Shown here piece after piece: positions 6,626-21,431 of a stretch of DNA of 64,000 bases. A program made the position numbers and the translations under genes. The notes under the pieces are model-generated. The model searched no databases and was not told the DNA's origin. It saw nothing but the letters and a program-made list of their open reading frames with translations. The stretch covers positions 102,037-166,036 of the forward strand of contig CAIVRH010000029.1 in NCBI GenBank assembly GCA_903908285.1. The letters are read 5' to 3'. This DNA comes from an uncultured candidate division Zixibacteria bacterium (GTDB lineage Bacteria; Zixibacteria; MSB-5A5; SM1-73). The first letter of the stretch is position 1; each line of letters starts with the position of its first letter.

Positions 6626-6953
6626 TCAGTCACCTTTTGATTGCTTCAACTATTTATAGAGCTTTTCGTCCCTCTTGTCAAGGGAGGACTGGTAGGGATT
6701 AGAGAATTCTGAGGAGCTCGGTCCTCCTGACTAACTACCTAAACTCACCCCTTTGTCCCCTCTCTTTTTAAGAGAGGGGATTTATGGTATTTCTGACCTT
6801 TCTGACCTTATGGTGAGAGTTTTCATTTTTGCTAAAGTGGTCTTGCTGTACAAGCTATGCTGTTCATACAAAAGGAGATAACAGATTTGCCATGCCGGTG
6901 TTTCTGACGTTTCTGACCTTACTGGGCTTTGTTTTTCTAATTTTTTCATCATT

Positions 6954-8280: not shown

Positions 8281-8835
8281 TTACTTCACGACAAAACGCT
8301 CGATCCACTGTTCGAATGCTTGCAGGAATTTCTTCAGGTAATCTCTTGTCGAATCGTTGATCAAATTCCCTTTGTCGTCGAACAAGCTGGCAGCATTGCC
8401 GATGTATGCTTCTGGCTGTCCCATGGTGGGCACGTTGACGAACACCAGAGACTGCCTGAGGTGATGGTTGGCGCCAAAAGCACCGAGCGCACCTGTGGTG
8501 CAGCTGATGACCGCGCCCGGTTTACCGTTCCACGTGTTTTGTCCATATGGACGCGATCCCATATCGATGGCGTTTTTCAAAACGGCGGGAACCGAGCGGT
8601 TATACTCCGGTGTAACAAACAGAACGGCATCGGCCGATTTGACCCTCTGCCTGAATTCGTTCACTTCTTTGGGCGGATTTTCCTCGAGATCTTGATTGTA
8701 GAACGGCAGATTGCCGATTTCGACGATTTCAAGCTTGAGCGATTCCGGCGCCAGAACAATTAATGCTTTTGCTAATTTGCGATTCCACGAATCCCTACGC
8801 AAACTGCCGACAAAGACTGCTACATTCTTGTACAT
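8281..8835 (-). CDS. NADPH-dependent FMN reductase family protein
   Basis: 184 aa. MYKNVAVFVGSLRRDSWNRKLAKA...VLFVTPEYNRSVPAVLKNAIDMGSRPYG is the FMN_red/ChrR/ArsH-type fold. Confidence 0.8.
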   Translation of the reverse strand: MYKNVAVFVGSLRRDSWNRKLAKALIVLAPESLKLEIVEIGNLPFYNQDLEENPPKEVNEFRQRVKSADAVLFVTPEYNRSVPAVLKNAIDMGSRPYGQNTWNGKPGAVISCTTGALGAFGANHHLRQSLVFVNVPTMGQPEAYIGNAASLFDDKGNLINDSTRDYLKKFLQAFEQWIERFVVK

Positions 8836-8872: not shown

Positions 8873-8899
8873 AGAATAGTGTGAGGAGCACGGGATTCC
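8873..8899 (-). repeat. cassette-boundary element (attC-like imperfect palindrome), copy a
   Basis: agaatagtgtgaggagcacgggattcc, about 45 nt downstream of the stop of gene 8942-9322. rc reads GGAATCCCGTGCTCCTCACACTATTCT. Confidence 0.5.
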
Positions 8900-8941
8900 T
8901 ATCTTACTGATAATTGATCACCATATTCAGCTTTGAGTTCT

Positions 8942-9322
8942 TTACGAAGATACCTTTTGCGGAAGGAGCAGATAACCAAAACCGACCGCAAAGAAGAGAT
9001 AGATGATAACGATACCCCAGCCGAGCACATTCAAACCGCCGGAGAGCAAAATTGTCAGTGTGGCCACAAAGGCAACGGCATCATAGACGAATAAAGCCAG
9101 GATGATAGCCCACCGGGTGGCAGATGCTTCTGCGTTTCTGGCAAACCAGGTGAGCATGAGATTGCCGCAAAGTGCCGCCCCGTATTCCCTCGCCAACAGG
9201 GCGGCTCCCGAACCGAAAGAGGCGCCCAGAAGTTTCATAAGCGGTCCCGGCGCAAAGAGCAGGATTGGCGCGAATCCAATACAGACAACTGCCTTGATGA
9301 TCATCAGGGTTTTGAATTTCAT
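8942..9322 (-). CDS. small integral membrane protein
   Basis: 126 aa with four predicted hydrophobic helices. Confidence 0.45.
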   Translation of the reverse strand: MKFKTLMIIKAVVCIGFAPILLFAPGPLMKLLGASFGSGAALLAREYGAALCGNLMLTWFARNAEASATRWAIILALFVYDAVAFVATLTILLSGGLNVLGWGIVIIYLFFAVGFGYLLLPQKVSS

Positions 9323-9365
9323 CGAAACCCTCCCTCTTTTGAAAAGGTTATAGGTATAACTCTAT

Positions 9366-9689
9366 TTAAGCTACCGGACTCCATATATTGGCTGAAAAAG
9401 TGGCTGGTTCGATCAGCAGGTGAAAAGCCGACTGAATTTTCTTCATCCCCTCGTCGTCGAAAATCCTTTTATTTATCTTCTCGCTTTCTGCCAGGTTCTC
9501 GTACTCCCATATTTCAATGTACATGCCGGTCGGTGAACCGTAGGTCTGCTTGAAAAGCTTCCACGATATCACCCCGTCGAAAAGCTGGGCATGATCCTGC
9601 TTGTATTTGACGAACTCGTTCAGCAATGGCGTGAATTCTGCTTTTTTTTCTGCTTTCACAACATACGTTTCCACTACGAAGATACTCAT
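9366..9689 (-). CDS. ABM-like (antibiotic biosynthesis monooxygenase / stress-responsive alpha-beta barrel) protein
   Basis: 107 aa with the ferredoxin-like pattern ...FVKYKQDH...MYIEIWEYENLAESEK... Confidence 0.4.
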   Translation of the reverse strand: MSIFVVETYVVKAEKKAEFTPLLNEFVKYKQDHAQLFDGVISWKLFKQTYGSPTGMYIEIWEYENLAESEKINKRIFDDEGMKKIQSAFHLLIEPATFSANIWSPVA

Positions 9690-9759
9690 CTCTTCACCTC
9701 CTTCAAGCGAATTGAACTGCGCACTTGATAAATGAATGGTATCCGGGGCATGGTTTTCA

Positions 9760-9853
9760 TGATTTGGTGCTTGGTGCCAGCGCTGTTGCCAATTTACGGT
9801 TCCACGACTCCTTACGCAAACTGCCGACGAAGACTGCTAGATTCTTGTTCATA
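9760..9853 (-). pseudogene. degenerate 5' fragment of a FMN-reductase gene
   Basis: rc reads MNKNLAVFVGSLRKESWNRKLATALAPST*. About 85% nucleotide identity to 8760-8835 (the start of the intact FMN-reductase gene). Confidence 0.6.
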
Positions 9854-9940
9854 ATTACCTCTTTATGAAAGAGGATAATCTGTGTCAGGAGCTCGGAACA
9901 CATGACCACCGACTAGATGGAATAAATATATTATCCTTCT

Positions 9941-10712: not shown

Positions 10713-10766
10713 GTTATTTTATCAATCTCCTCTTCATCAGCTTGGTGCCGATGTAGAAAGCGGCAA
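10713..10766 (-). pseudogene. short fragment of an ABC-2 permease 3' end
   Basis: tatcaatctcctcttcatcagcttggtgccgatgtagaaagcggc matches 20545-20600. It is interrupted by a GC-rich palindrome. Confidence 0.5.
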
Positions 10767-10905
10767 TTCTGTAAGGGTCGCACAGACGTGCCCCCAGGCG
10801 GGAGCGTCCGCTCGTCTGGGCATTCATGCGACCCCCGCCTTTAGCGGGGCTGTAAGCCGCGGGCTTGACTTGTGGTGAGTTTATCGAACCATGAATCAAG
10901 CCCCT

Positions 10906-11060
10906 ACTTTATCAATCTTCTCTTCATCAGCCTGATGCCGATGTAGAAAGCGGCGGATTCGAGGAGAATGATGTATAAAAAGTCCATTAAAAGTCCCGGA
11001 GAAGGCTCGCCGGAGAAAGCGGAGCGGGAGATATTGACTACGTGGGTAAGGGGAACTCTT
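10906..11060 (-). pseudogene. degenerate copy of the ABC-2 permease 3' end (about 150 bp)
   Basis: Near-identical to the last ~50 codons of the permease gene at 20545-20700 (…SGEPSPGLALD…YIGIKLMKRRLIK), same orientation. Confidence 0.65.
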
Positions 11061-11189: not shown

Positions 11190-12140
11190 TCAACCATGAA
11201 TGATCTGCTCGAGTAAGAATCCGGAGATATCGGTTTTGATCTGTATCCACAACGGGAGGTGGTCGGAGAGCTGGTAAGTGAATTCCTCTTTTTTCATACC
11301 GTCCGGGAAAAGTTCCTGGATATGGGCTTCGTCTATGAAGAAATCGAGCACGCCCCCTGCATTGCTAAAATTCTCCGGGTAGTTTGGATAATGGAGGATC
11401 TGATCATAGCGTTTACTTTTGGCGAGATCAGTGCCGGGGGCATCGAGGAGCTTATCGGGAATCTTCAGGCCGTATTTGGTGATGGCCTTGAACGTGGGGT
11501 CCTCGCGCGAGGGGATGTTGAAGTCGCCCATGATCATGAAGTCATGGTCTTCTGCAAATTTGTCCAGACGCTTGCCCTCGATCCAGGCGGCCAACATGGC
11601 TATTTCGCCCTCGCGCCCCTCCATGCTGTCGCCCCACCGAATGTGCGTGGTCAGCACCACGAAATCGAAGATGCCGGATTTGAAGGAAGCGAGGTAAGGA
11701 CTTCGCCAAAAGGACTTCTCGGACAAATATTCCTGACCTATTTTCTTGCGCGGCTCGTTCGCCTCGGCGGCCAGTCCGTTGAAGGTGGCAGCCCGCTGGT
11801 CATAAACATAAGCCACGCGTTCCCGGTTGCCGCCTAGGTCGGGGATGACGTCCGAGAAAACCGCGCGCCAGTAAGGTCCGAGGATTTTTAAAACCCGGCC
11901 GAGGTCAGCGAGATTGTCTCGCAATTCAACGATCCCAATCAGATCGAACTGGCCGAGGATTTCCGCAATGTAATGGATGGCCGCTTCACTGCGTGGTGTC
12001 TTGCCAAACTCCCGGATGTTCCAGGTGGCAATATTCAAGGTTTCGTCGAGTTTCGACGAGGGAATTTTCGCTGCCTGAATGCGCTTCTGCAAGGCAATCA
12101 AACCCCGGGCAATGTCCGGAGAAACATCTCCATGTTCCAT
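11190..12140 (-). CDS. endonuclease/exonuclease/phosphatase (EEP) family protein
   Basis: 316 aa. IATWNIREFG near the N-terminus, GDFN, and C-terminal SDHLPLW are the EEP catalytic motifs. No signal peptide. Confidence 0.75.
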   Translation of the reverse strand: MEHGDVSPDIARGLIALQKRIQAAKIPSSKLDETLNIATWNIREFGKTPRSEAAIHYIAEILGQFDLIGIVELRDNLADLGRVLKILGPYWRAVFSDVIPDLGGNRERVAYVYDQRAATFNGLAAEANEPRKKIGQEYLSEKSFWRSPYLASFKSGIFDFVVLTTHIRWGDSMEGREGEIAMLAAWIEGKRLDKFAEDHDFMIMGDFNIPSREDPTFKAITKYGLKIPDKLLDAPGTDLAKSKRYDQILHYPNYPENFSNAGGVLDFFIDEAHIQELFPDGMKKEEFTYQLSDHLPLWIQIKTDISGFLLEQIIHG

Positions 12141-12409
12141 AGGTATCCTCCTTTACCGCTTGTACTACTATTTATCAGTTATATGGAGCATCTAAGCTAC
12201 TAACTGACAATGAATAAGCAGATAGGTCAATTATCCTAAAGGATGATCGACAATTTTTCCCATCCAGCAGTCTTGCAGACATACTTAACCTACTATTACC
12301 GGGTCGTGACAGCACATAACTACCATCGAGCTAACGCAAGAGGGTCAGGTGTAGGTAGAACGTCACCCGGACCCTCCGGTTAGGCCAAATAGAAATAGTA
12401 GAGCAGCCA

Positions 12410-13246
12410 TCAATCAAATTTCAACTCGCGTTTGGTTGCCTCGCATTCCAACTGCGGAGTCTGGTTGTAGTGCCCTGCGTTCAGGTGGGCGCGGATTTTT
12501 GTCAGCACCTGTGCACGGGAAAGCGAATTGTTACAGGCGTACATTTCTTTGCAGAAATAGTAAGTGAACGCCCCATGCCAACCACCGGCGATATGGGCAT
12601 CCGCACTCGTCTGGTCGGCACGGCAGGCAGCCCAGAGGATGTGATGCACGATCCCCTTTTCCAGCAACCCGCGCGCGAGTCCGCGAGATCGCTTCCCTTC
12701 CACCTCGATGAATGCCTCCAACGATGGGGGCGGCAGGTAGCGCGGCGTTCGATCAAGCAGCAGGTCAACCGCCTTGAGTCCCGTACCGCTGTGGCAGGTA
12801 TCCAAGTAAACCTCCAAAAGCACATTGGGAGGAAGCTGGATGAACAAATCTCGCAGCTCGTCATCCACGATGACATGATTCCTGTCCCATTGGTTGCCTG
12901 CCTGGGTCAGGTCATGCGGGCAAAACGCCTCATCCGCACGATCAGGTTCATCGTGGTTTAAATCCGGCACCTGTGTGCCATGACTTGACAGGCTGAATAC
13001 CAAGTAGGAGTATTTGCCTGCTTTTGCGCCATCTACCATGGTTTTGAGGTTGCTCATGATATTGGCTTTTGTGGCTTGTGCATCGTGTAGCTGGGTAATA
13101 TCTGTGCCGGCAAATCCGAGCAGCTTCTGCAGCAAAGCCGACATTTCGTTGGCATCATTGACACAACCTTGCAACGTAGAACCGGGATAGTTCTTGAACT
13201 GATTGATTCCGACACATAGGGCTTTTCTGTTACTAGGCATAAGCAC
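12410..13246 (-). CDS. caspase-like peptidase (family C14)
   Basis: 278 aa. KALCVGINQFKN...LQGCVNDA, catalytic His in SSHGTQ, and catalytic Cys in DTCHSG. No signal peptide. Confidence 0.8.
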   Translation of the reverse strand: MLMPSNRKALCVGINQFKNYPGSTLQGCVNDANEMSALLQKLLGFAGTDITQLHDAQATKANIMSNLKTMVDGAKAGKYSYLVFSLSSHGTQVPDLNHDEPDRADEAFCPHDLTQAGNQWDRNHVIVDDELRDLFIQLPPNVLLEVYLDTCHSGTGLKAVDLLLDRTPRYLPPPSLEAFIEVEGKRSRGLARGLLEKGIVHHILWAACRADQTSADAHIAGGWHGAFTYYFCKEMYACNNSLSRAQVLTKIRAHLNAGHYNQTPQLECEATKRELKFD

Positions 13247-13490
13247 CTCCTTAGGTTGTGCTCGTTGGGATTGACAGGACCGTTCAGTAACGAGCCAGAC
13301 TAAGCCGGTCCCCTTTCATTGAACTTCATCCTCTGACTGATTTTCCCCTCATTTTTACAAAAGCACTCTTTTCCCTGGCATAATGTCAAGCGTCGGTGGC
13401 TGGGTGGGCGCTTTTTCCTCTCCGTCCACGAACACCCGAATCAGGCGACGGTTTAGCTTGACAGCAATTACAGCCTAACTCACTTTTGAC

Positions 13491-14438
13491 TTAAAACTTA
13501 AACTGTCCGGTATCGATCCACTCATTCTTTAGAACTGACCACCAATCAACAGCGAGTCCTTTCAACACATAGTCATAAGGGAGCCAACCATAACCGCCGG
13601 TACCCCATTCTGGACCCCAAGAGTTTCTGATGAGTAAGGCTCCTGTGGTTTCGACACCTCCCGGATTGGTGTTTTTAATCGTCATTCTATCGTCGTAACC
13701 AACGGCATCAATGGCATGACCACCTAAAATCTTCTCTCCGGGTGTGGGAAAAGGTATCTTTCCGGTTGTGGCAGCCTGGGATAAGGAACTATACACCGTA
13801 AAGCCGAACATCGAGGGTAGATAAGCAGCTAAATTTGTCTTGATCCGATTCAGCAGAGCATCCTTAGGAGTTCCAGGCGGATCATAACGGTAGTAGCTAA
13901 TCGCCTTGTAGCTCTGGGCGTAGGCATAGCAGAATGCCGGCGGCTCCAGATCAAAGTGGTAGGTTGGAACAATAGGCTCGCCGATTCCTTTATCGGTGTA
14001 CGGCCAATATTCCTCCGGGGGCACGCCAAATAATACCAATGCGCCCATGGTGGTACGAAGAAAGGCTCCGGTGTCTCCAGACCAGTGTAACATGTTTCGG
14101 GTTGCCTTATAAAGGAAGAGTCTGGAAGCATCAATATGTTTTCCGAAGGCCTTTTTCTCAAAATACTCTACTATTCCAACACCCGCATGGGCCGTGCATG
14201 AACCAAGACTAAGTTGGTTCTCGATAGGAGAGCACCAGGGCCTTAAATCTGCAGATACCGGCAGGCTTACTCCCGCCGGTTCCGCTACTCCTGCTTTCTT
14301 GAGCATGGCCTTAACAGAATCTGCCTGTCCCAAAGCTTTAAGCGTTTCAGGAATATCTTCTTGCTCTACCGTGTGGTCCCTGAAATCGGGATAATCCGGT
14401 AGCCATCCCATTCCCAATTTTTCAATGATCTCAGCCAT
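13491..14438 (-). CDS. papain-like cysteine peptidase (family C1)
   Basis: CSPIENQLSLGSCTAHA (oxyanion Gln plus catalytic Cys), GGHAIDAVGYDD (catalytic His), and NSWGPEWGTGGYGW. The start is taken at the internal ATG at 14438, which has a GGAGGTG RBS; the longer ORF start at 14537 is unlikely. Cytoplasmic. Confidence 0.8.
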   Translation of the reverse strand: MAEIIEKLGMGWLPDYPDFRDHTVEQEDIPETLKALGQADSVKAMLKKAGVAEPAGVSLPVSADLRPWCSPIENQLSLGSCTAHAGVGIVEYFEKKAFGKHIDASRLFLYKATRNMLHWSGDTGAFLRTTMGALVLFGVPPEEYWPYTDKGIGEPIVPTYHFDLEPPAFCYAYAQSYKAISYYRYDPPGTPKDALLNRIKTNLAAYLPSMFGFTVYSSLSQAATTGKIPFPTPGEKILGGHAIDAVGYDDRMTIKNTNPGGVETTGALLIRNSWGPEWGTGGYGWLPYDYVLKGLAVDWWSVLKNEWIDTGQFKF

Positions 14439-15146
14439 AATATACACCTCCAATTCAATTAGGACCTTAGTTTGTCGAGTTTTTCTACCAAAACAACCTA
14501 CAAGACAGCAATCCGCTTTGCTAACTAATCGCTTCACCTCCTTTCAGCGCCAATCATAATGCCGCCTAACTCTGAATATACTGCCCGGTATAACACCCGG
14601 GGTACCGCTCCGAGTGTTATATAATACACAGCAGAAAAAACTGTCTACTTGGTCATATCCGATGAAATATCAGGTGGTCACATCGAGACGCCGGTTTTAT
14701 CGCAGCGTCTTCTTTGCGTCAATAGAGATTCCTTCGTGTCTATTTTTATACAACTAAGTCAAGAACCTGATACCGCTAATATTTATCAAGTTTATAGGGA
14801 CTTAGCCTGCGAACCTATTATAACTACCCCTAATTATATTTCTGTATTCTATTCTTAAAAAATATAGGACTACTGTCAAATTTTGTCAAGCTTTTTTTAT
14901 AATATTTCTGAAAAATCGTTCCTACGGGGCTTGATGCCCCTTCCTCCAACATTGAGGTCTTAAAGACCGAAGGGCAGGATGAAGCTCTCTTGTGCGTTGG
15001 TAACCTATTGAGATTCAACACGAAAACGAGCAGAGTCTACCTTAAGCAGGATTATTTTTGGCATTTATTCAGGGCTTTATATGGGGATATTTATGATTAA
15101 TAATTTCTATCGACTAAGATTAATTGAGGATATTGCTTCCGACCGC

Positions 15147-15296
15147 TATTTTATCAATCTTCTTTTCATCAGCTTGATGCCGATGTAGAAAGCGGCGGTT
15201 TCGAGGAGAACGATGTACAAAAAGTCCAGCGCCAAGCCCGGTGAAGGCTCGCCGGAAAAAGCTCAAGCGGGAGATATTTACTGCGTGGGTAAGGTG
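15147..15296 (-). pseudogene. degenerate copy of the ABC-2 permease 3' end
   Basis: About 150 bp, same orientation, roughly 90% identical to 20545-20700. Confidence 0.65.
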
Positions 15297-15310
15297 GAGA
15301 GTTTTTCTTA

Positions 15311-15375
15311 AACCTCTCCCCCTGTCCTAAGGATCTTCGATATCCCACTCTCCACATTTGTGGAGAGAGGGACTA
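15311..15375. repeat. family-1 variant between the permease fragment and the FMN-reductase fragment
   Basis: aacctctccccctgtcc...cccactctccacatttgtggagagagggac. Confidence 0.55.
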
Positions 15376-15386
15376 TTGGGCGGCCA

Positions 15387-15414
15387 AGAATAGTGTCAGG
15401 AGCACGAGGCTCCT
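15387..15414 (-). repeat. cassette-boundary element, copy b
   Basis: agaatagtgtcaggagcacgaggctcc immediately downstream of the FMN-reductase 5' fragment. rc has a GGAGC-ctcgt-GCTCC hairpin. Confidence 0.5.
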
Positions 15415-15424
15415 AACCTGCAAA

Positions 15425-15533
15425 CTTGCGTGGCTAAGGGCGCCAGCGCGATCAATGCTTTTGCCAATTTGCGATTCCACGAATCCTTCCGCAAACTGCC
15501 GACGAAGACTGCCACATTATAGTTCTTATTCAT
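15425..15533 (-). pseudogene. degenerate 5' fragment of a FMN-reductase gene
   Basis: rc reads MNKNYNVAVFVGSLRKDSWNRKLAKALIALAP... It matches 8735-8835 and is followed by a premature stop. Confidence 0.6.
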
Positions 15534-15544
15534 AATGATCCTTT

Positions 15545-15571
15545 AGAATAGTGTCAGTAGCGCGGGGCTCC
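15545..15571 (-). repeat. cassette-boundary element, copy c
   Basis: agaatagtgtcagtagcgcggggctcc, 5-30 nt downstream of the stop of gene 15576-16046. Confidence 0.5.
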
Positions 15572-15575
15572 AGAC

Positions 15576-16046
15576 CTACTTGCTCTTGCGTGTACACCGC
15601 CCTTTGTGTTTTTTTCTATCCCAAAATAGACTTCGCCAACTTTTAATCTCGAAGGGAACGAGGGCATTGTGCAGAGTTGAAGTACCTCTTGTCCGGACAT
15701 ATCGACCATTTTTCCGGCTCCAACCATGATCGTCGACAATTTTCTCTGCTTCAGAATAAGGCATTCCAAAGGCCCGGGTCTGCAACTCTGTCCCCACATT
15801 CCAAAGATAAACAATGTAGAGATCTGGAATTTTCAGATATTTCTGGTCCGTGAAGAACTCCTCTCCAGAAAAAGACTTCAACTGAAGAGGGAGGGCTCGG
15901 AAACCTTCATCCACGCAATCGGTATAGACGATGAGATCTATCCCTTCGTCAATGTCTGGGCGAGCAAACTTTATTCCCTCTCGGTAAAGCTTCTCTGCAA
16001 CGTAAGCTTCCCCGATTTTTTCGATTTGATGGCTCGATAGTTCCAT
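15576..16046 (-). CDS. small PD-(D/E)xK (Mrr-cat-like) nuclease-fold protein, hypothetical
   Basis: 156 aa. EKIGEAYVAEKLYREG...PDIDEGIDLIVY...LPLQLKS fits the D...D/E-x-K (QxK variant) pattern of Mrr-type catalytic domains. This is a weak call. Confidence 0.35.
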   Translation of the reverse strand: MELSSHQIEKIGEAYVAEKLYREGIKFARPDIDEGIDLIVYTDCVDEGFRALPLQLKSFSGEEFFTDQKYLKIPDLYIVYLWNVGTELQTRAFGMPYSEAEKIVDDHGWSRKNGRYVRTRGTSTLHNALVPFEIKSWRSLFWDRKKHKGRCTRKSK

Positions 16047-16088
16047 TTTATCTTTTCAGACTGGATATCTCGATTAAGACTCTTATCT

Positions 16089-16146
16089 CAAGTGCCCTGC
16101 GCACCTGAAAAACGAATAGTGGCAGGAGCATGAGGTATCTGACATA
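16089..16146 (-). repeat. cassette-boundary element, extended copy d
   Basis: caagtgccctgcgcacctgaaaaacgaatagtggcaggagcatgaggtatctgacata, downstream of the REC gene stop. Confidence 0.5.
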
Positions 16147-16205
16147 ATACAGCTACTAACTACTTTGTAGCAATACAGTTGTTGTAGCTAACTTAGTATT
16201 AGAAC

Positions 16206-16952
16206 TCATGTTGGTTGTTTTTTCCCAACTTTGATAGGATTCGACCGACTCTCTGCAATTGTCGTAATGGATTTTTGCACCAAACTCTCAATGGAGTAAC
16301 AAAACTCTATATTTTGGAAACGTACAATCATAACGTCTTTACTAATATTCTCAACTTGTTCCGGCTTATATGCTGTATAGAAGATAACTGGGAGGTCCCG
16401 AATTACAAGATCATCATGTTTCTCGCGTAGTTCTTTTATTTGCTCCATACCACCGTAGGTAGCATTCCCCTGTTTGTCTCTCCATTGAATATCCGATATA
16501 ATCAAGTCAAAGTCATTATCTTCCTCGATTCTTTTCTTAATGGTTTCCGGTGTGGCTGATATAACCTCAATTCCCAATGCCCTCAACAAGCGCCTCTCAC
16601 CAACAACCACATGTGGATTATCGTCTATCCAGAGGATTCTTCCCCCCTGCGCTTCAGCAATTTTGGAACCCAAACTCGCAAGCAGTCTTCTGAGCTTCTT
16701 AGGTTGAGCATCTAACATTCCATATAACGCTCCCTGAACCTGCGGTTGTTCTAATTGCAACTCGACGCCACCAGCCTTAAAGTATTTCAGTCTTTCCCAA
16801 GGAAGAACCAAGATCAAAACTGCAACAACAAAAAGCACAAGAATAGTGGTATCCATATTGTGACTTGCGATATCATGCATTTTCAACCTCATTAATATAA
16901 TTAACATCGCGAAACCGGTTAGTCCGAACTTTATCCCGAGCCACGTTTTCAT
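16206..16952 (-). CDS. membrane-anchored stand-alone response-regulator receiver (REC) domain protein
   Basis: Two N-terminal transmembrane helices, then a canonical REC: ILWIDDNP (acidic pair), DLIISDIQW (phospho-acceptor Asp), VIFYTAY (Thr), YKP (Lys). No output domain and no kinase nearby. Confidence 0.7.
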   Translation of the reverse strand: MKTWLGIKFGLTGFAMLIILMRLKMHDIASHNMDTTILVLFVVAVLILVLPWERLKYFKAGGVELQLEQPQVQGALYGMLDAQPKKLRRLLASLGSKIAEAQGGRILWIDDNPHVVVGERRLLRALGIEVISATPETIKKRIEEDNDFDLIISDIQWRDKQGNATYGGMEQIKELREKHDDLVIRDLPVIFYTAYKPEQVENISKDVMIVRFQNIEFCYSIESLVQKSITTIAESRSNPIKVGKKQPT

Positions 16953-17090
16953 TTGTTACCCTCGCTTGATTGGTTGACCTAGTAAATGTTTGCTATTCAA
17001 CTATTAACTATATGGTTACTTCATCTCACATTTTTGACACTTACCAGCGACAAAAAGGATTAATGTGCATTGGTTCCAAAGATTCACAGA

Positions 17091-17147
17091 TCAAGTGCCC
17101 TGCGCACCAGACAAATGAATAGTGTCAAGAGCACGGGACTGCTGATC
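17091..17147 (-). repeat. cassette-boundary element, extended copy e
   Basis: tcaagtgccctgcgcaccagacaaatgaatagtgtcaagagcacgggactgctgatc, downstream of the ABC ATPase stop. About 80% identical to copy d. Confidence 0.5.
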
Positions 17148-17208
17148 TACCTACTATTTCGCCTCTCCAATCTGAAACTAAAAATCCTTAATAAATTTTT
17201 TATCTTAA

Positions 17209-19002
17209 TCAGAATTTTGGCAAATTAAACAAGGTGCCAGCCTGTCCCTCATCATTTAGTTCCCTGATAATTTCTTCTTTCTTGAATTCAATAACCTTGT
17301 CATTTTCATCCCTTGGTAAATCTGCAGTAATTATAGTCAAGATGTACTGCAATCCATAGGAACCACAATATTCCCTGACAAGTTCTAGAAAATTATTCTT
17401 CTTTCTGTTATCAAGGCCCTCAAGGATGCCATCATGGTAAACGAATCTGAAAAAAGAGCGTTTTGCATAATTTTTCAATATGGCCAAATCGAAAGCAGCG
17501 CAAAGTAGCTTCTTGTAGGTTGTTCCTCTGCCTTCGCTTGTTGCCTCCATAGTTTTTTCATCATGGACAATATCAGCACTAAAGTCAATATTGCCCATAG
17601 TATTAATCTTAATAGACAATAAAGCTGAAATATTCAAAACTGCTTTGATAATCCTGTCAAAATCATTTCTAATATCGGAATATAAGCTCGCTCCAGCCTT
17701 AATTTGGTCGTTGATATTGTCAACAAGCCCTTTTCTCTTCTGTTCATATCCATCTATCTCTTTTTGTATGACAGCAACTGAATCAAGAGTCTCAAGCTGA
17801 GAATGCAGTCTTACTAAATCAGTCTCCTGGTGCACTAAGCTTTTCTGTAGCAATTTAAACTTATCAAAAGTATCTTCTCCTCGTAATATTCTGAGAAGAT
17901 CCTCTCTTTTTGAATTTAAATCTCTCAGTTGTCCGCATACCGAATCCTGCTCTTGCTTCAAAGTTTGAAGCCTTTCTTTTAGTCTCTTATTTCTTTCAGC
18001 AGAAATATTCTCATTAAATTTTACTAAATCCGTGTAGCCTTTCATCAGTTTATCAGGAAAATGAATCTGTGTTTCCTCAAATATCTGTTTTACTTCATTC
18101 AAGTCAAAATTGACTTTGGCTTCTAGAGCATCCTGAATTTTCTCAATCTCATAATTAATGTTGTAAACCTGATCATTAAGAGAGGCGATTTCAGTCTCAG
18201 TCTTCTCGACTAATTCTTTATTAATACTGAGCTCTTTTTCATAAAAATTAAACCTATCTATCTTTTCATAAGCTTCTTTTATTTCCCTCTGCTTTATTTC
18301 AATGGCTCCTTTTAGCTTGTCATATTCCTCTGTCTTTGTAGTCAAGGTCTTTTTATATTCCGCCTTGTATTTCTCCCTGCTCTCTATTGTCTTATCTATT
18401 TCATATTTCTCTTTCAACAAAGAGTCATCAAAACCCAATAATTTTGCAAGATAAGGCTTCCATTGAGAATGTTCCCCAATGCTGAATTTGCTTATCTGGA
18501 AAACATCTTGATAATCGCTTTGCGTCCTCAAGAAATAAGAAACACCTTTCCGGTAAGGCCATGGTGCTATCGAATCAAGATCAAGATAGGAATTAAGACT
18601 GTCTACCGCCTTCCGGATTGGCATTCCGCTGTAATCCCATTGCTTTTCTCCATGATTTTTAAAATCCTGGAATTTATCGTCATGAATTTTGAAACATATC
18701 TTGGTATTGTTATCAACACATCGTTTGATGGTTAGATATTTACCTGAATTAAGCAGTATCTCCAGATAAAACTCGAATCCCCTGAACTCTTTTTTATTGT
18801 CATAAAGAAAGTGCCCATCTTTCAACTCCTTAAGTAAAAGAAAATCAATAAGATGAATAAGGAGGGTTTTACCTAGATTATGTGAATCTTTATAAGTTTC
18901 CTTGGGTCTTCTGACTTTCCCATAAATTACATTAAAGCCTTCATTAAAGTGGATGGGCTTAAATATCTCGTCTCTGTTTGAATATATCTTGCTTAGTTTC
19001 AT
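17209..19002 (-). CDS. SMC-like ABC ATPase with a long coiled-coil insert (Lamassu LmuB / ABC-3C ATPase-like)
   Basis: 597 aa. N-terminal KLSKIYSNRDEIFKPIHFNEGFNVIYG...SHNLGKT (Walker A). About 300 aa of KE-rich coiled coil. C-terminal ...GRGTTYKKLL...FFRFVYHDGILEGLD (signature / Walker B / D-loop analogues). Confidence 0.6.
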   Translation of the reverse strand: MKLSKIYSNRDEIFKPIHFNEGFNVIYGKVRRPKETYKDSHNLGKTLLIHLIDFLLLKELKDGHFLYDNKKEFRGFEFYLEILLNSGKYLTIKRCVDNNTKICFKIHDDKFQDFKNHGEKQWDYSGMPIRKAVDSLNSYLDLDSIAPWPYRKGVSYFLRTQSDYQDVFQISKFSIGEHSQWKPYLAKLLGFDDSLLKEKYEIDKTIESREKYKAEYKKTLTTKTEEYDKLKGAIEIKQREIKEAYEKIDRFNFYEKELSINKELVEKTETEIASLNDQVYNINYEIEKIQDALEAKVNFDLNEVKQIFEETQIHFPDKLMKGYTDLVKFNENISAERNKRLKERLQTLKQEQDSVCGQLRDLNSKREDLLRILRGEDTFDKFKLLQKSLVHQETDLVRLHSQLETLDSVAVIQKEIDGYEQKRKGLVDNINDQIKAGASLYSDIRNDFDRIIKAVLNISALLSIKINTMGNIDFSADIVHDEKTMEATSEGRGTTYKKLLCAAFDLAILKNYAKRSFFRFVYHDGILEGLDNRKKNNFLELVREYCGSYGLQYILTIITADLPRDENDKVIEFKKEEIIRELNDEGQAGTLFNLPKF

Positions 19003-19015
19003 TTTCTATTATTGT

Positions 19016-19264
19016 TTACGTATTATTTTTACCAATAAATTCCAATGAATCTGTCTGTAAGTGGTATTCGATCATGCCGAGTAAATATAAAAAATCCAAC
19101 GACGGCACAAAAACATGTTTTACATCTTCTCCAATCTTGCCAACCAAATACTGCAATACCTCACTATATTCCATTACTCTGTTATTCTCGAACAGCTTAA
19201 TAAGCATGGAGGATACCCTGACTACAGATAAGTCCAAATCCATATATTTTGTCGGGGTTATCAT
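19016..19264 (-). CDS. small alpha-helical 'middle component' (LmuC-like) of the ATPase module
   Basis: 82-aa ORF tightly sandwiched between the effector and the ATPase: 4-nt overlap upstream and a 13-nt gap downstream, which suggests translational coupling. Confidence 0.35.
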   Translation of the reverse strand: MITPTKYMDLDLSVVRVSSMLIKLFENNRVMEYSEVLQYLVGKIGEDVKHVFVPSLDFLYLLGMIEYHLQTDSLEFIGKNNT

Positions 19265-20199
19265 TTCTTCTCACCTATATCGCAATTACAGTACATATAA
19301 TGCAAAAACACATTTATCAAAGTTCGCGATTCCCTAAGTTCGGGATGCTTGTCAAGTATTGTATCGTAAAGATGCTCAAAAATTTCTTCGAATTTGGCAA
19401 ATTCATTCTTTCTTGTGATTATCTTCCCTTTCAACTCATCAATCGTATTGTAGTAGTAATCTGTATACTTCTTGTTTATCAGCTTCTTTAGGAAAGCTGT
19501 TATTGCATTAAAGGAAGACTCCGAATTTTCCTTGATATATTTAAAATACTCTTCACTCAACTTATTCAGCTCGTTCTTTGTTTCAAGGCTTACATAGTCG
19601 AACGAGTACTTGCTGTCAAATTCCGTAGCAACCTGCTCTCGGTCATTATAAAAAGCTACGATAACATCCCTTATGTCATCAGAGTGTATTCTTAATGGAT
19701 CTCTGAATTTCTCAAGGTTACAAGTTTTTACTATGGCAGGATTCGCATCAAGCCAAAGAGTAATCGCCTCAACTCCAATAATCTCAACATTGGAAATGCT
19801 AAGATTATTCTTGAGATAATCCGTTTGCTGCTGATGTGCTTCAGCAGTAAGTTTTCTGTTTGTGAAAATGAGATAATTATCAACTTCTCCATTTTGTTTT
19901 AACTTCTTAATTTTGGGGATTTCTTTGTCCAATATCTTAGTCTTAAAATCCGCATGAGAACAACTCGAGTTAGGGTTATTAGTCTTTTTTGCCTGAATAA
20001 TAAATTTTCCTGTCCATGGTCTTGCAGCACTTGGATACTGGTTTGAAGTGCCTTCAAACTTCCCATCTCTACCACCATCTGGCCCTTCACTGAAATTTAT
20101 GGTTCCAATTCCCAATATTTTTTGGCAAATATGGATAACCAGATCCTCAAATTTCTGTGTAGAAAGCTCGTGAAGATGATAATCCCTCATTATAAACAC
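19261..20199 (-). CDS. Mrr-type restriction-endonuclease-fold effector protein
   Basis: The N-terminus FEDLVIHICQKILGIGTINFSEGPDGGRDGKFEG...GKFIIQAKK matches the Mrr_cat pattern (F-E-x-L...G...G-DGG-D-G...IQ-x-K). The C-terminal ~170 aa have no recognisable domain. Confidence 0.55.
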   Translation of the reverse strand: MFIMRDYHLHELSTQKFEDLVIHICQKILGIGTINFSEGPDGGRDGKFEGTSNQYPSAARPWTGKFIIQAKKTNNPNSSCSHADFKTKILDKEIPKIKKLKQNGEVDNYLIFTNRKLTAEAHQQQTDYLKNNLSISNVEIIGVEAITLWLDANPAIVKTCNLEKFRDPLRIHSDDIRDVIVAFYNDREQVATEFDSKYSFDYVSLETKNELNKLSEEYFKYIKENSESSFNAITAFLKKLINKKYTDYYYNTIDELKGKIITRKNEFAKFEEIFEHLYDTILDKHPELRESRTLINVFLHYMYCNCDIGEKK

Positions 20200-20541
20200 C
20201 TCTTAACGTATACCAAATTACTTATTAATAAACTTATCTTAAAAAAATAGCTGTTAGATTTTGCCGCTTATTTAATCTATTATATTAGAAAGGAGATAAA
20301 AACCAAGAGAAAAAAGCCACTCAAATCTATATTTTGAAACTTGCCCATATCCAGCTTAAATTTGGAAGATCAGGTGTCATGCACACTTGACAAAAAAAAG
20401 TATCAAGAACACGTATCTCCTCATCTATTATTATCTATTCATAAACTATTATAATCATTCATGCCATCTTGTCAAGCACTTAAGAACAGTAATTATGCGT
20501 TTTTACATAATAATTTTTCTAACAAGCGCGGGCTTCGACCA

Positions 20542-21309
20542 CTACTTTATCAACCTTCTCTTCATCAGCTTGATGCCGATGTAGAAAGCGGCGGATTCAA
20601 GGAGAATGATGTATAAAAAGTCCAGCGCCAAGCCCGGAGAAGGCTCGCCGGAGAAAGCGGAGCGGGAGATATTTACCGCATGGGTAAGAGGAAGGAACTT
20701 GGCGAAGAATTTCATCCAACCGGGGAACCGGTCCAGCGGGAAAAATACTCCGGAGAAAAAGAGCATGGGGGTGATAATCAGCTCGGTATAGTAATTGAAG
20801 AAGTCGAAGTTCGGCGCAAACGAGGTTACGATCATCGCCAGCGAGCCGAACAAGATACCGATGAAAACCATCAAGACCAACAGAAGCAGAACGTTGACTA
20901 TCGAGACCGGATATACATGCATGAAAGTGGCAACCACCAGCATGAGCGACCCGCTGATCAATCCCCGGAAAGCTCCCCAGGCGACCTCTCCGGCTATGGC
21001 ATCCTCTGCGGATACGGGGGTGGCTATCAAAGAGTCGAAGAGCTTCTGGTAGGTGACCTTGACGAAGGTGCCGTATAAACACTCGAAAGTCGACGAGAGC
21101 ATCACCGAAGATACCAAAACGCCGGGGACGAGAAAATTCAGATAGGGCTTCCCGCCGAAATACCCCATATATGCGCCCATGCCGATGCCGAAGGTGATCA
21201 GATAGAAGAGCGGCTGCCCCAGACTGACCACGAAGGTGGTGAGAACGAACCTTTTGTATGAAATAAGGTTCCGGTAAAAGACATAATATATGCGGTAAGA
21301 AAGATTCAT
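20542..21309 (-). CDS. ABC-2 type transporter permease
   Basis: 255 aa with six hydrophobic helices. Paired with the upstream ATP-binding gene. Confidence 0.8.
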   Translation of the reverse strand: MNLSYRIYYVFYRNLISYKRFVLTTFVVSLGQPLFYLITFGIGMGAYMGYFGGKPYLNFLVPGVLVSSVMLSSTFECLYGTFVKVTYQKLFDSLIATPVSAEDAIAGEVAWGAFRGLISGSLMLVVATFMHVYPVSIVNVLLLLVLMVFIGILFGSLAMIVTSFAPNFDFFNYYTELIITPMLFFSGVFFPLDRFPGWMKFFAKFLPLTHAVNISRSAFSGEPSPGLALDFLYIILLESAAFYIGIKLMKRRLIK

Positions 21310-21431
21310 GTTATGCGTCCTTTAGGGGCAAATGAAACCGAACTCACCCCTTTTATTCCCCTCTCTTAAGAAGAGAGGGGATTCAAGAGTCTACCACGCA
21401 GACTAAAGTCTGCGGCTACCAACCCCCCTAC

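What the first reader, a model, noticed from the sequence alone, without database searches (positions are those of the whole stretch)
15387..17147. Conserved attC-like imperfect palindrome downstream of every cassette gene in module B
A 27-60 bp element with core AGAATAGTG[T/G]CA[G/A]GAGCA[C/T]G[A/G]GG occurs shortly after the stop codon of each consecutive same-strand gene. On the gene strand it reads GGAGC-n5-GCTCC-TGACACTATTCT. Copies lie at 8873-8899 (after gene 8942-9322), 15387-15414 (after the FMN-reductase fragment), 15545-15571 (after 15576-16046), 16089-16146 (after the REC gene) and 17091-17147 (after the ATPase), with a partial copy near 9873-9900. Same-orientation genes each followed by a conserved imperfect inverted repeat resemble an integron cassette array, although no intI is present in the window. 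Alternatively the element is a family-specific terminator or REP.
Basis: seen in the sequence. Interest (0 to 1): 0.6.

Follow-up and report, generated by a model that had tools for sequence, protein, structure and literature searches.

The report
REP-like hairpins delimiting swappable gene cassettes
The repeated motif is real, but it is not an integron site: it is a decayed copy of a REP-type hairpin repeat from Zixibacteria, linked to a RAYT transposase, that follows each gene in runs of accessory genes and marks the points where those genes are swapped between strains.

Summary
Five copies lie at the stated coordinates (0 expected by chance), and I found four weaker ones.

The 27-60 bp motif is one half of a ~70-nt element, on the gene (-) strand: GTAG-GTCAGGAGC-CCCGT-GCTCCTGAC-ACTATTCATTT-GTCAGGTGC-GCAGG-GCACCTGAC-CTAC. 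This is a GTAG-tagged REP doublet, like a REPIN. It occurs only in Zixibacteria-type genomes: 286 copies in 116 loci.

- **Arrangement:** copies form co-oriented arrays (161 neighbouring pairs on the same strand, 8 opposite; median spacing 654 bp), usually with one co-oriented small gene between them.
- **Cassette turnover:** in close relatives the same ABC-2-permease to FMN-reductase interval holds 0, 3, 5 or about 12 genes. Shared cassettes lose homology inside the element in 51 of 55 cases.
- **Not an attC:** it has no RYYYAAC/GTTRRRY boxes, and no IntI lies near any array.
- **Linked recombinase:** the only one found is a RAYT (HUH Y1 transposase). Its own flanking hairpins share the GTCAGG/CCTGAC stem, and in some relatives it sits at the end of such an array.

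The mechanism is inferred: RAYT nicking next to hairpin 1, or homologous recombination between copies. The window's own copies are mostly decayed.

The parts
20448..20475 (-). Perfect sigma-70-type promoter (TTGACA-16-TATAAT) just downstream of the ABC-2 permease stop, reading into the array. It is conserved at the same place in relatives.
   Evidence: 12 of 12 consensus positions; the same CTTGACAAG..TATAAT/TATGAT block follows ABC2 in L144, L145, L147 and L152.
20363..20432 (-). Degenerate two-hairpin element copy that opens the array, upstream of the ABC-3C cassette.
   Evidence: nhmmer E=6.8e-6. It aligns with a well-preserved full copy at the same position relative to the homologous cassette in L052.
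17117..20394 (-). Cassette holding a three-gene ABC-3C defence module: Mrr_cat+CTD12 19261-20199, MC8 19016-19264, DUF2326 ATPase 17209-19002.
   Evidence: Pfam. It is 88.8% identical over 3.3 kb to L052:242-3521, which is also bounded by elements, and the homology ends exactly at TATTC.
17080..17155 (-). Full element copy with hairpin 1, spacer ACTATTCATTT and hairpin 2.
   Evidence: 70.4 bits. Fold z -2.0.
16114..17116 (-). Cassette holding a membrane-anchored receiver-domain protein (16206-16952).
   Evidence: Pfam Response_reg. Bounded by elements.
16077..16148 (-). Full element copy with a degenerate left arm.
   Evidence: 47.8 bits. Fold z -2.7.
15546..16113 (-). Cassette holding a DUF4365-like protein (15576-16046). 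Its TAG stop is the TAG of the element's GTAG tag.
15546..15586 (-). Half copy: hairpin 1 plus ACACTATTCT, followed by the FMN-reductase 5' fragment.
15439..15535 (-). Duplicated 5' fragment (~97 nt) of the FMN reductase gene.
   Evidence: the repeat finder family D10. 88.75% identical to 8747-8826.
15387..15424 (-). Half copy with the best hairpin in the window. It is followed directly by a second, unrelated palindromic repeat ('REP-G', about 15298-15386).
   Evidence: the only copy flagged as terminator-like.
15143..15297 (-). Duplicated 3' fragment (~155 nt including the stop) of the ABC-2 permease gene. Further copies lie at 10901-11055 and 10715-10764.
   Evidence: the repeat finder families D6/D15 and alignment A2.
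9882..9907 (-). Weak partial hairpin-1 copy in front of the second FMN-reductase 5' fragment (9764-9860).
   Evidence: nhmmer E=0.065, alignment and family D10.
9704..9753 (-). Degenerate copy: decayed hairpin 1, CATTCATTT and a hairpin-2 remnant.
   Evidence: nhmmer E=5.1e-6.
8879..9703 (-). Cassette holding two genes: a NIPSNAP-like protein (9366-9689) and a 126-aa membrane protein (8942-9322). Homologues of the membrane protein are cassettes in L024, L077 and L081.
   Evidence: cluster 2.
8874..8913 (-). Half copy immediately upstream of the intact FMN reductase gene (8281-8835). The same arrangement is seen in relatives.
   Evidence: L152, L147 and L144 all have a half copy in front of FMN_red.
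6712..6739 (-). Doubtful, strongly decayed hairpin-1-like copy after the 180-aa ORF (6954-7496).
   Evidence: the repeat finder family D13 at 62% identity. nhmmer E=2.2, not significant.

Best explanation
The motif is the conserved half of a REP-type palindromic repeat.

**Structure.** The unit is a GTAG-tagged 9-bp-stem hairpin with the tail ACACTATTC. It is usually paired head-to-head with a second, related hairpin to give a ~70-nt REPIN-like doublet.

**Which system it belongs to.** The repeat goes with a RAYT (REP-associated HUH/Y1 tyrosine transposase) system of Zixibacteria.

**What it does in these genomes.** It sits at the 3' end of each unit, usually one small gene, in long co-oriented runs of accessory genes. 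It is the joint at which units are gained, lost and exchanged, so the arrays behave like integron cassette arrays without being integrons.

**Most likely mechanism.**
1. On single-stranded DNA the RAYT recognises the GTCAGG/CCTGAC-stem hairpin.
2. It nicks a few bases 3' of it, after ACAC-TATTC.
3. Two co-oriented sites allow the segment between them to be excised as a circle carrying one rebuilt site.
4. That circle re-inserts at the TATTC of another site, which extends an array in one orientation.

**Shown here:** the family and its anatomy; the arrays and their polarity; cassette turnover at one locus; breakpoints inside the element; the sharp TATTC edge of half copies; and the RAYT-stem association.

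**Inferred:** that the RAYT acts on these copies, the nick position, and circular intermediates.

The window's own copies are mostly decayed relics, and the window encodes no RAYT.
For: **Family and anatomy.**
- 26 exact matches to the pattern fall in Zixibacteria or 'Ignavibacteria'-labelled MAGs, several contigs per genome.
- 98 metagenome loci also carry it.
- It fits the published description of GTAG REPs: doublets with GTAG on the outside and a conserved spacer, and a TAG that supplies the stop codon of the flanking ORF (PMC3733652).

**Arrays.**
- There are 286 copies. Neighbouring copies are on the same strand in 161 cases and on opposite strands in 8. Median spacing is 654 bp.
- Of 150 intervals, the largest ORF is co-oriented in 123, opposite in 15 and absent in 12.

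**Turnover at the window's own locus.** In relatives with at least 90% identical ABC2, the order is ABC2, promoter, then 0 genes (L152), 3 (L144), 5 (L147/L148) or about 12 (window), then a half element and FMN_red. The cassettes between are non-homologous and element copies follow them.

**Other conserved loci with different cassettes:** L026 vs L070, L006 vs L119, L074 vs L096.

**Same cassette in different neighbourhoods.** 51 of 55 homology breakpoints lie inside the element. One 260-aa gene follows at least three different upstream cassettes, each time with the junction ...ACACTATTC|(T/C)ATG; two further copies show the same junction.

**RAYT link.**
- L013:23-505 has Y1_Tnp just below Pfam's cut-off (21.5 bits against 23).
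- It has 310 homologues, several named RayT by JGI.
- HUH (HIH) and the Tyr of NYIHHNPV align with E. coli TnpA-REP, PDB 4ER8, E=1.3e-6.
- In 8 genomic contexts, at 57-100% protein identity, the gene is flanked by GTCAGGTC...GACCTGAC hairpins; one context has the variant GCCAGGTC.
- All 6 loci of the close homologues have element copies within 4 kb. In L013 and L143 a co-oriented cassette array ends at the RAYT.
- L142 (RAYT, HNOB, peptidase M1) is syntenic with the window's array end.
Against: - No RAYT is present in the window (tblastn). Whether the source genome has one could not be tested.
- The hairpins flanking the RAYT share the stem but not the loop or tail of the array element, so 'cognate' is an inference.
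- Two other RAYT genes near arrays (L021 and L068) are flanked by different REP families.
- Distant RAYT homologues (L154, L155) have no adjacent cassette array.
- There is almost no compensatory variation in the stems. The outer arms decay while the inner arms and spacer stay conserved. That suits a double-stranded protein-binding site at least as well as a hairpin substrate.
- Many 'half' copies are full copies split by insertion of another repeat with a target duplication of ACTATTC. That removes part of the argument for a crossover at TATTC.
- One lineage (L140) carries the doublet reversed relative to the genes and with another spacer.
- The duplicated ABC2 3' and FMN_red 5' fragments in the window point to growth by homologous, Campbell-type integration of whole locus copies rather than single-cassette insertion.
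- Breakpoints inside a 70-nt repeat are also what RecA-mediated exchange between copies would give.
Confidence: 0.55

Rival explanations
1. The element is a passive REP and exchange happens by homologous recombination. It spreads into extragenic DNA after genes in poorly constrained accessory regions, perhaps acting as an mRNA 3' stabiliser. Cassette-like turnover arises because the many ~70-nt near-identical copies, and the duplicated gene ends, serve as portable homology for RecA-mediated deletion, duplication and uptake of DNA from relatives. No site-specific enzyme moves the genes.
For: - There is no compensatory change and the copies simply decay.
- The window array contains three ABC2 3' fragments and two FMN_red 5' fragments, 85-90% identical to the resident genes. 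That is as expected if whole locus copies from relatives were integrated by single crossovers.
- Breakpoints inside the repeat fit homologous exchange equally well.
- Orthologous copies are inherited vertically, for example after the first ABC2 gene in L147, L148 and L152.
Against: - 97 half copies end at the same base (TATTC), and many have a start codon or ribosome-binding site close behind. A 260-aa gene shows the identical junction behind at least three different cassettes.
- Orientation bias is extreme: 161 to 8 between copies, and 123 to 15 relative to ORFs.
- Copies are confined to arrays and absent from ~50 kb of core genes in the window.
- Array loci are enriched for RAYT genes.
Confidence: 0.22
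2. The conserved centre, GTGCTCCTGACAC-TATTCAT-TTGTCAGGTGCGC, is a double-stranded core site for a tyrosine recombinase encoded elsewhere. It has 13-bp inverted arms around a 7-bp overlap, like lox, FRT or dif. Cassettes are excised and integrated by conventional site-specific recombination within the overlap.
For: - The inner arms and spacer are the best-conserved part, while the outer arms decay without compensation.
- The asymmetric spacer gives the site a polarity that matches the strict co-orientation.
- Half copies keep the left arm plus TATTC.
- One XerD-like gene lies 4 kb from an array in L127, and another lies ~4 kb beyond FMN_red in L152.
Against: - Only one tyrosine recombinase turned up in ~720 kb of array-flanking DNA. 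It scores 248 bits against E. coli XerD, so it looks like the housekeeping Xer protein.
- Cassettes that lack hairpin 2, and so lack the right arm, still show the exact TATTC junction.
- L140 has a different spacer.
Confidence: 0.08
3. This is a true but highly divergent integron (CALIN). The elements are attC sites of an unusual sequence type, recombined by an integron integrase encoded elsewhere in the genome.
For: - The arrangement matches: co-oriented arrays, cassette-sized spacing, and sites that start at or near the stop codon.
- The cassette functions are integron-like.
- A promoter reads into the array.
- Arrays lacking a nearby integrase are common among integrons (CALIN; PMC4889954).
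- The consensus can fold as one long imperfect hairpin of attC-like length with three mismatches.
Against: - There is no R''/R' (AAC/GTT) signature.
- The outermost inverted repeats have the opposite polarity to R''/R'.
- The junction lies in the apical loop of the long fold, with ~35 nt of conserved sequence after it, rather than 6 nt from the 3' end.
- attC sites are conserved in structure rather than in sequence; this element shows the opposite.
- No IntI lies next to any of the arrays.
Confidence: 0.06
4. The element is a lineage-specific intrinsic terminator or RNA-processing hairpin placed after each gene, with no role in DNA rearrangement.
For: It is a GC-rich hairpin directly after stop codons, on the sense strand, followed by a partly U-rich tail (UAUUCAUUUGU). 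Copy 15387 passes the terminator scan.
Against: - Only 1 of about 9 window copies passes, and terminator-like sites are not enriched (19 against 15.6 expected).
- A terminator does not explain the second hairpin, the GTAG/CTAC ends, the restriction to variable arrays, or breakpoints inside the element.
- There is no Rfam match.
- An RNA role could coexist with the DNA role.
Confidence: 0.05

Closest known systems
REP / REPIN-RAYT systems: GTAG-tagged REPs of Proteobacteria, the E. coli REP/BIME with TnpA-REP, and the Pseudomonas fluorescens REPINs
   Same: - A short GC-rich imperfect palindrome with a GTAG tag.
- Head-to-head doublets with a conserved spacer, able to fold as two hairpins or one long one.
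- Extragenic position, with the TAG often used as the stop codon.
- A single-copy HUH/Y1 transposase whose gene is flanked by hairpins of the same stem.

Sources: PMC3733652, the REPIN definition in PMC3337134 (abstract), and PDB 4ER8.
   Different: - The copies are not scattered singly through the genome. They are concentrated in co-oriented arrays with one accessory gene per interval.
- The inter-copy segments turn over as units.
- The host phylum, Zixibacteria, is new for this kind of element as far as the searched literature shows.
- The RAYT-flanking hairpins differ from the array copies in loop and tail.
Integron gene-cassette arrays and CALINs (clusters of attC sites lacking an integron integrase)
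   Same: - Co-oriented arrays of small genes, though some cassettes carry promoter-like sequences of their own.
- An imperfect palindrome after each ORF, and cassette-sized spacing.
- Toxin-antitoxin, GNAT and ORFan content.
- Strain-specific cassette sets at a fixed locus behind a promoter.
- Frequent absence of a neighbouring integrase (PMC4889954).
   Different: - No R''/L''/L'/R' boxes and no AAC/GTT triplets.
- The junction is in the centre of the palindrome.
- Sequence, not structure, is conserved.
- No IntI was found; the associated enzyme is a HUH transposase, not a tyrosine recombinase.
IS200/IS605-family single-strand transposition (IS608, ISDra2) and the non-autonomous elements derived from them
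   Same: The substrate has the same logic: a subterminal hairpin with a cleavage site a few bases away on the same strand; insertion 3' of a short specific sequence (here TATTC); and a Y1 HUH enzyme related to RAYTs. This comparison rests on my own knowledge of IS608; the protein relationship is shown by Pfam Y1_Tnp.
   Different: - The units carry ordinary cargo genes and no transposase.
- One site type in direct repeat would serve as both ends.
- The units are stacked in tandem.
- None of this is demonstrated for any known IS200/IS605 element, as far as I know.
Xer-dependent modules (pdif modules of Acinetobacter plasmids)
   Same: Genes bracketed by short recombinase core-type sites, with modules found in different contexts (own knowledge).
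   Different: pdif sites are 11-6-11 XerC/XerD sites in alternating orientation. Here all sites are co-oriented and the sequence is unrelated to dif. Xer involvement was not tested.

Membership tests
Integron attC site / CALIN | Inverse core R'' (RYYYAAC) at the 5' end and core R' (GTTRRRY) at the 3' end, with conserved AAC/GTT triplets (own knowledge of the attC consensus; R and L boxes as in PMC4889954) | tested here: not met
   The family consensus has no AAC or GTT on either strand. R''...R' pairs 45-150 nt apart occur around 2 of 278 copies per strand, against 2.8 in shuffles.
Integron attC site / CALIN | Structure conserved rather than sequence: a folded hairpin with R and L boxes, an unpaired central spacer, extrahelical bases, and the recombination point at the base (G|TT of R') | tested here: not met
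   The consensus folds as a long hairpin with 3 mismatches. However, sequence is highly conserved, pairs break without compensation, and the junction (TATTC|) lies in the apical loop with ~35 conserved nt after it.
Integron attC site / CALIN | At least two co-oriented sites within 4 kb, each following a cassette ORF | tested here: met
   161 neighbouring pairs on the same strand and 8 on opposite strands. Median spacing 654 bp. ORFs co-oriented 123 to 15.
Integron attC site / CALIN | An integron integrase (IntI) next to the array or elsewhere in the genome | tested here: inconclusive
   None in the window. phmmer with XerD over all six-frame ORFs of ~720 kb of array loci found none beside an array; the one XerD-like gene it found lies 4 kb away. 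Whole genomes could not be searched.
REP / REPIN (GTAG-tagged) | A short imperfect palindrome with a GC-rich stem and a GTAG tetranucleotide at one end | tested here: met
   9-bp stem and 5-nt loop. The GTAG/CTAC positions pair in 64-85% of copies not used for seeding. Single-hairpin copies GTAG-HP-CTAC also exist.
REP / REPIN (GTAG-tagged) | [quoted passage not shown] | tested here: met
   156 of 286 copies are doublets with GTAG on the outside and the spacer ACTATTCATTT. Definitions.
REP / REPIN (GTAG-tagged) | Extragenic position close to the 3' ends of genes, with the TAG often used as the stop codon | tested here: met
   In a quarter of cassettes the stop codon lies within the element's 5' tag (stop to TATTC distance of 40 nt or less; median 67 nt). 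The window gene 15576-16046 stops on the tag.
REP / REPIN (GTAG-tagged) | Many copies dispersed around the genome | tested here: inconclusive
   Two to three array loci per MAG were hit. L147 has 14 copies in 17 kb. The window's core ~50 kb has none. Copy number per complete genome could not be counted.
REP / REPIN (GTAG-tagged) | A RAYT gene flanked by its cognate REPs | tested here: inconclusive
   A RAYT clade is flanked in 8 contexts by hairpins with the same GTCAGG(TC)/(GA)CCTGAC stem but other loops. Array-type copies lie within 4 kb in all 6 loci of the close homologues. The window itself has no RAYT.
IS200/IS605-type transposon | A tnpA (Y1) gene inside the element, between left- and right-end hairpins | tested here: not met
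   The cassettes carry unrelated cargo. The 206-aa protein with a faint TnpA similarity has no HUH motif and no Pfam hit.
Intrinsic terminator | A GC-rich hairpin followed directly by a U-run | tested here: not met
   Only copy 15387 passes. Sites are not enriched over shuffles.

The most novel reading that the evidence does not exclude
Zixibacteria carry a gene-cassette capture platform that does the job of an integron with different machinery. A domesticated HUH/Y1 transposase (RAYT) replaces the integron integrase, and a REP hairpin with a nick site (GTCAGG-stem hairpin plus ACAC-TATTC) replaces attC. Single-gene units are excised as single-stranded circles and stacked in one orientation behind a promoter. 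This would give REP/RAYT systems, whose function is still debated, a concrete role in assembling accessory and defence gene arrays.
Probability: 0.25. Interest if true: 0.9.

Novelty: new variant of a known kind. Interest (0 to 1): 0.6.

Why it matters
REP sequences and their RAYT transposases are widespread, but what they do for the cell remains unclear. Integrons are so far the only well-understood system that stacks single-gene cassettes.

Here a REP-type element marks the boundaries of exchangeable gene units. These include toxin-antitoxin genes and a complete ABC-3C defence module. The units sit at a fixed chromosomal locus whose content differs between close relatives, and the RAYT gene lies at the end of such arrays in some genomes.

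If the RAYT really moves these units, this would be a second, independently evolved cassette system. It would also give RAYTs a function. If it does not, the arrays still show how short repeats organise a hot spot of gene turnover in an uncultured phylum. Either way it is a warning that attC-like arrays without the attC signature should not be called integrons.

Tried and rejected
- **Known RNAs.** Rfam at gathering threshold over the whole window and at E<=1 over 15000-17600 gave nothing. There are no tRNA or tmRNA genes that could act as integration targets.
- **Recombinase in the window.** Pfam on the large ORFs found no integrase, transposase or resolvase.
- **Strain variants of the source contig.** The contigs recovered via the FMN_red and ABC2 proteins are 99.96-100% identical to the window over the aligned parts. 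The only difference is a 79-nt divergent tail on L004, probably an assembly artefact.
- **Recombinases next to arrays.** The faint TnpA-like hit on a 206-aa cassette protein was false: no HUH motif and no Pfam hit.
- **Half copies as attL/attR-like products.** I first read the two kinds of half copy, which share TATTC, as products of recombination. Most of the right-half copies turned out to be full copies split by another repeat with a target duplication, so I withdrew that argument.
- **Covariation.** There are very few compensatory changes in either the two-hairpin or the long-hairpin model.
- **Promoter readings.** Sigma-54 and sigma-70 readings of the motif did not fit by inspection.
- **Phage or satellite origin.** The exact core has no match in viral contigs.
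- **dif similarity.** The GGTGCGCA in hairpin 2 matches only the XerC-arm start of E. coli dif (from memory), and the rest does not. I did not pursue it.
- **Generality beyond this lineage.** Distant RAYT homologues (L154, L155) keep the stem hairpins but have no adjacent cassette array.


Full report
**1. The observation**

The core AGAATAGTGKCARGAGCAYGRGG occurs at 8873, 15387, 15545, 16113 and 17116 and nowhere else in the window. No shuffle gave a hit. On the gene (-) strand the five copies fit CYCRNGCTMYTSMCACTATTC exactly.

A profile built later from full-length relatives also finds:
- two degenerate copies that were missed (9704-9753 and 20363-20432);
- a doubtful one at 6712-6739.

All are on the - strand, which carries nearly all the genes. 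All lie between 6.7 and 20.4 kb. The remaining ~50 kb holds core genes such as mnmE, gyrA and glutamate dehydrogenase and has no copy.

**2. The context in the window**

The copies lie between an intact ABC-2 permease gene (20542-21309) and an intact NADPH-dependent FMN reductase gene (8281-8835). The interval contains, in order along the - strand:
- a three-gene ABC-3C defence module;
- a receiver-domain protein;
- a DUF4365-like protein;
- papain-like and caspase-like peptidases;
- an endo/exonuclease-phosphatase family protein;
- several proteins with no family match.

It also contains two extra copies of the first ~97 nt of the FMN reductase gene and three copies of the last 50-155 nt of the permease gene. 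No integrase, transposase, tRNA gene or Rfam family is present.

**3. The element is larger and belongs to a family**

A scan of one genome per species found the motif repeatedly in Zixibacteria MAGs, and in MAGs labelled 'uncultured Ignavibacteria', on several contigs per genome. About 15 further hits in unrelated phyla match the number expected by chance. A metagenome scan gave 98 more loci.

The full unit, read on the gene strand, is:

(A)GTAGTAG-GTCAGGAGC-CCCGT-GCTCCTGAC-ACTATTCATTT-GTCAGGTGC-GCAGG-GCACCTGAC-CTACGAGGCT

So two related 9-bp-stem hairpins face each other across an asymmetric 11-nt spacer, with GTAG...CTAC on the outside. As ssDNA the consensus folds as one long hairpin at -24.9 kcal/mol, z -6.5. 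The window's copies fold poorly and most are no better than shuffles, so they are decayed.

Of 286 copies in 116 loci:
- 156 are full doublets;
- 98 are hairpin 1 plus ACACTATTC(T) only;
- 21 are the right half only;
- a few are single hairpins of the form GTAG-hairpin-CTAC.

This anatomy matches published GTAG-tagged REPs: head-to-head dimers with conserved spacers, able to fold separately or as one stem-loop, whose TAG often provides the stop codon of the flanking ORF (PMC3733652). It also matches the definition of a REPIN.

**4. The arrays**

Neighbouring copies are on the same strand 161 times and on opposite strands 8 times. Median spacing is 654 bp, interquartile range 478-995. In 150 inter-copy segments the largest ORF is co-oriented with the element in 123, opposite in 15 and absent in 12. 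The ORF usually ends just before or inside the element's 5' tag.

The 100 distinct cassette proteins include BrnT and ParE toxins, SAM methyltransferases, GNAT acetyltransferases, alpha/beta hydrolases and restriction-like nucleases. Only 55 Pfam families were hit across the 100 proteins. This is the profile typical of integron cassettes. No gene family recurs at array borders, so arrays sit at many different chromosomal places.

**5. The segments behave as units**

*The window's own locus.* The permease belongs to a 90%-identity cluster whose one organism-labelled member is annotated Candidatus Zixiibacteriota. In relatives from that cluster the same interval reads as follows:
- L152: permease, conserved promoter, half element, FMN reductase, with no gene in between;
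- L144: three genes in between;
- L147/L148: five genes in between (BrnT/BrnA, a 161-aa protein, a SIR2-like protein, a 235-aa protein);
- the window: about twelve.

The flanks are 83-89% identical. The interior is non-homologous apart from one BrnA segment shared by L144, L145 and L147. Element copies follow the cassettes; L147 has 14 copies along 17 kb of co-oriented genes and none among the opposite-strand core genes beyond.

*Other conserved loci.* Three more also hold different cassettes between conserved flanks.

*The same cassette in different neighbourhoods.* The window's ABC-3C module (17117-20394) is 88.8% identical over 3.3 kb to L052:242-3521. There it is also bracketed by elements and has a different downstream neighbour, with no homology in the short upstream stretch available; the homology stops exactly at TATTC. 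Over all homologous cassette pairs whose neighbours differ, 51 of 55 breakpoints lie inside the element. Only 4 lie in the unique intergenic DNA around it. These pairs are not all independent.

*A repeated exact junction.* A 260-aa gene follows at least three different upstream cassettes, each time with the junction ...CCTGACACTATTC|(T/C)ATG; two further copies show the same junction.

**6. It is not an attC**

- The consensus has neither AAC nor GTT. RYYYAAC...GTTRRRY pairs are at chance level.
- The outer inverted repeats have the wrong polarity.
- The junction is in the centre of the palindrome, with ~35 conserved nt after it.
- The stems show decay, not compensation. The inner arms and spacer are the most conserved part.
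- No integron integrase lies in the window or beside any array. phmmer with XerD over ~720 kb found one Xer-like gene 4 kb from one array. A second Xer-like gene lies ~4 kb beyond FMN_red in L152.
- The cassette-array resemblance to CALINs (PMC4889954) is therefore functional, not membership.

**7. The linked enzyme**

L013 carries a 160-aa Y1-transposase-like gene directly after a variant element at the end of a co-oriented array. Its Pfam Y1_Tnp score is just below the curated cut-off.
- It has 310 homologues, several named 'REP element-mobilizing transposase RayT'.
- It keeps the HUH motif (HIH) and the tyrosine of NYIHHNPV.
- Its only match among solved structures is E. coli TnpA-REP, 4ER8.

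In eight genomic contexts, at 57-100% protein identity, the gene is flanked on both sides by hairpins with the stem GTCAGGTC/GACCTGAC; one context has the variant GCCAGGTC. This is the same stem base as the array element.

All six loci of the close homologues have array-type copies within 4 kb. In L143 a cassette array (a 204-aa protein, a peptidase-M78/DUF4411 pair, a 207-aa protein, a methyltransferase) ends at the RAYT. On the other side, seen in L142, come HNOB and peptidase M1, the same genes that flank the window's array at ~70% nucleotide identity.

The window itself has no RAYT. Two other RAYT genes near arrays carry other REP families, so these genomes hold several REP/RAYT pairs.

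**8. Mechanism**

The data show that the element is the joint of exchangeable units and that half copies end sharply at TATTC. I infer that the RAYT nicks ssDNA a few bases 3' of hairpin 1. Two co-oriented sites would then allow excision of a circle and its re-insertion at another site. This is the IS608-type substrate logic, with one site type serving as both ends (own knowledge of IS200/IS605).

The main rival is that the repeats only provide homology for RecA-mediated exchange. Four points support the rival:
- the duplicated permease and reductase fragments in the window, which look like Campbell-type integration of whole locus copies from relatives;
- the absence of covariation;
- the fact that many half copies are full copies split by another repeat with a target duplication;
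- a lineage in which the doublet is reversed and has another spacer.

A double-stranded 13-7-13 tyrosine-recombinase core site is a further possibility that the conservation pattern allows. A plain terminator role is unlikely: only one of about nine window copies passes the scan, and there is no enrichment.

**9. Verdict**

The integron interpretation holds for how the locus is organised but fails the membership test.

What goes beyond known REP biology is the arrangement as polarised, integron-like arrays whose inter-repeat segments turn over as cassettes, with the RAYT at the array end in some genomes. I found no description of this in the searched literature. That search covers open-access papers only.

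Noticed in passing
window 15298-15386, 6742-6779, 7765-7809, 21341-21378, 24693-24762, 26893-26962, 32165-32234, 60192-60248; also many related loci: A second palindromic repeat family ('REP-G': ..AACTCACCCC..CCCCCTCTCC-loop-GGAGAGGGGG..GGGGGAGAGGTYT..) is scattered through the window, including between core genes. In related loci it is repeatedly inserted exactly into the spacer of the main element, with a duplication of ACTATT(C). That insertion creates most of the 'half' copies.
   Followed up: partly
window 10780-10829, 58179-58228, 60127-60176; L009, L019 and L024 hairpin-2 loops; flanks of the RAYT-like gene in L021 (3620-3660, 4240-4275): A third repeat family (..GCCCCCAGGCGGGAGCGTCCGCTCGTCTGGGC.. 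/ CCCGGYCTG hairpins) is found inside the loops of hairpin 2 in some copies. It resembles the hairpins that flank a different RAYT-like gene. These genomes seem to hold several REP/RAYT pairs nested in one another.
   Followed up: partly
window 9764-9860 and 15439-15535 (FMN_red 5' fragments); 10715-10764, 10901-11055 and 15143-15297 (ABC-2 permease 3' fragments): Both genes that flank the array are partly duplicated inside it. The break positions are shared (reductase after about codon 32; permease 155 nt before the stop, each time abutting a REP-G end). The fragments are 85-90% identical to the intact genes. The array looks assembled from at least three tandem copies of the whole locus, possibly taken from relatives. 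How the joints formed is unexplained.
   Followed up: partly
window 20448-20475 (- strand); L144, L145, L147, L152 just after ABC2: A perfect TTGACA-16-TATAAT promoter sits between the permease stop and the first cassette. It is conserved in relatives whatever the first cassette is, in a position like the cassette promoter (Pc) of an integron. Several cassettes in other loci carry similar CTTGACA...TATAAT sequences of their own.
   Followed up: partly
window 11190-14537 (- strand): Three neighbouring genes encode a papain-family C1 peptidase, a caspase-family C14 peptidase and an endonuclease/exonuclease/phosphatase protein. They lie inside the variable region with no element copies between them. 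This could be a multi-gene defence or cell-death module carried as one unit.
   Followed up: no
window 54400-60100 (- strand): Three tandem paralogous genes (54585-56261, 56506-58050, 58368-60053) are built from 159-nt (53-aa) SBBP beta-propeller repeats and carry type IX secretion sorting tails. They account for the largest direct-repeat families in the window.
   Followed up: no
window 7494-7553, 29913-29972, 32075-32134, 54424-54540, 58274-58323, 61859-61918: An A/T-rich repeated motif (..AATTCAAAATT..GCAATTCAAAA..) recurs in intergenic DNA upstream of several - strand genes. It may be a shared regulatory or promoter-region element.
   Followed up: no
L068 9914-10213 and 10718-10771: A RAYT gene is preceded by three tandem 100-nt units, each holding a two-hairpin REP (GTAGCGTCCGAGCTTGTCTCGGACG-AGGG-GCGTCACACACGGAGTTGTGACGCTAC), and is followed by a fourth copy. 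The GTAG, two hairpins, CTAC architecture is the same as the element studied here, but the sequence differs.
   Followed up: partly
L004 4753-4831: One metagenome contig that is otherwise 99.96% identical to the window diverges inside the Mrr_cat gene for its last 79 nt. This is either a chimeric assembly end or a strain variant at the start of the ABC-3C cassette.
   Followed up: no
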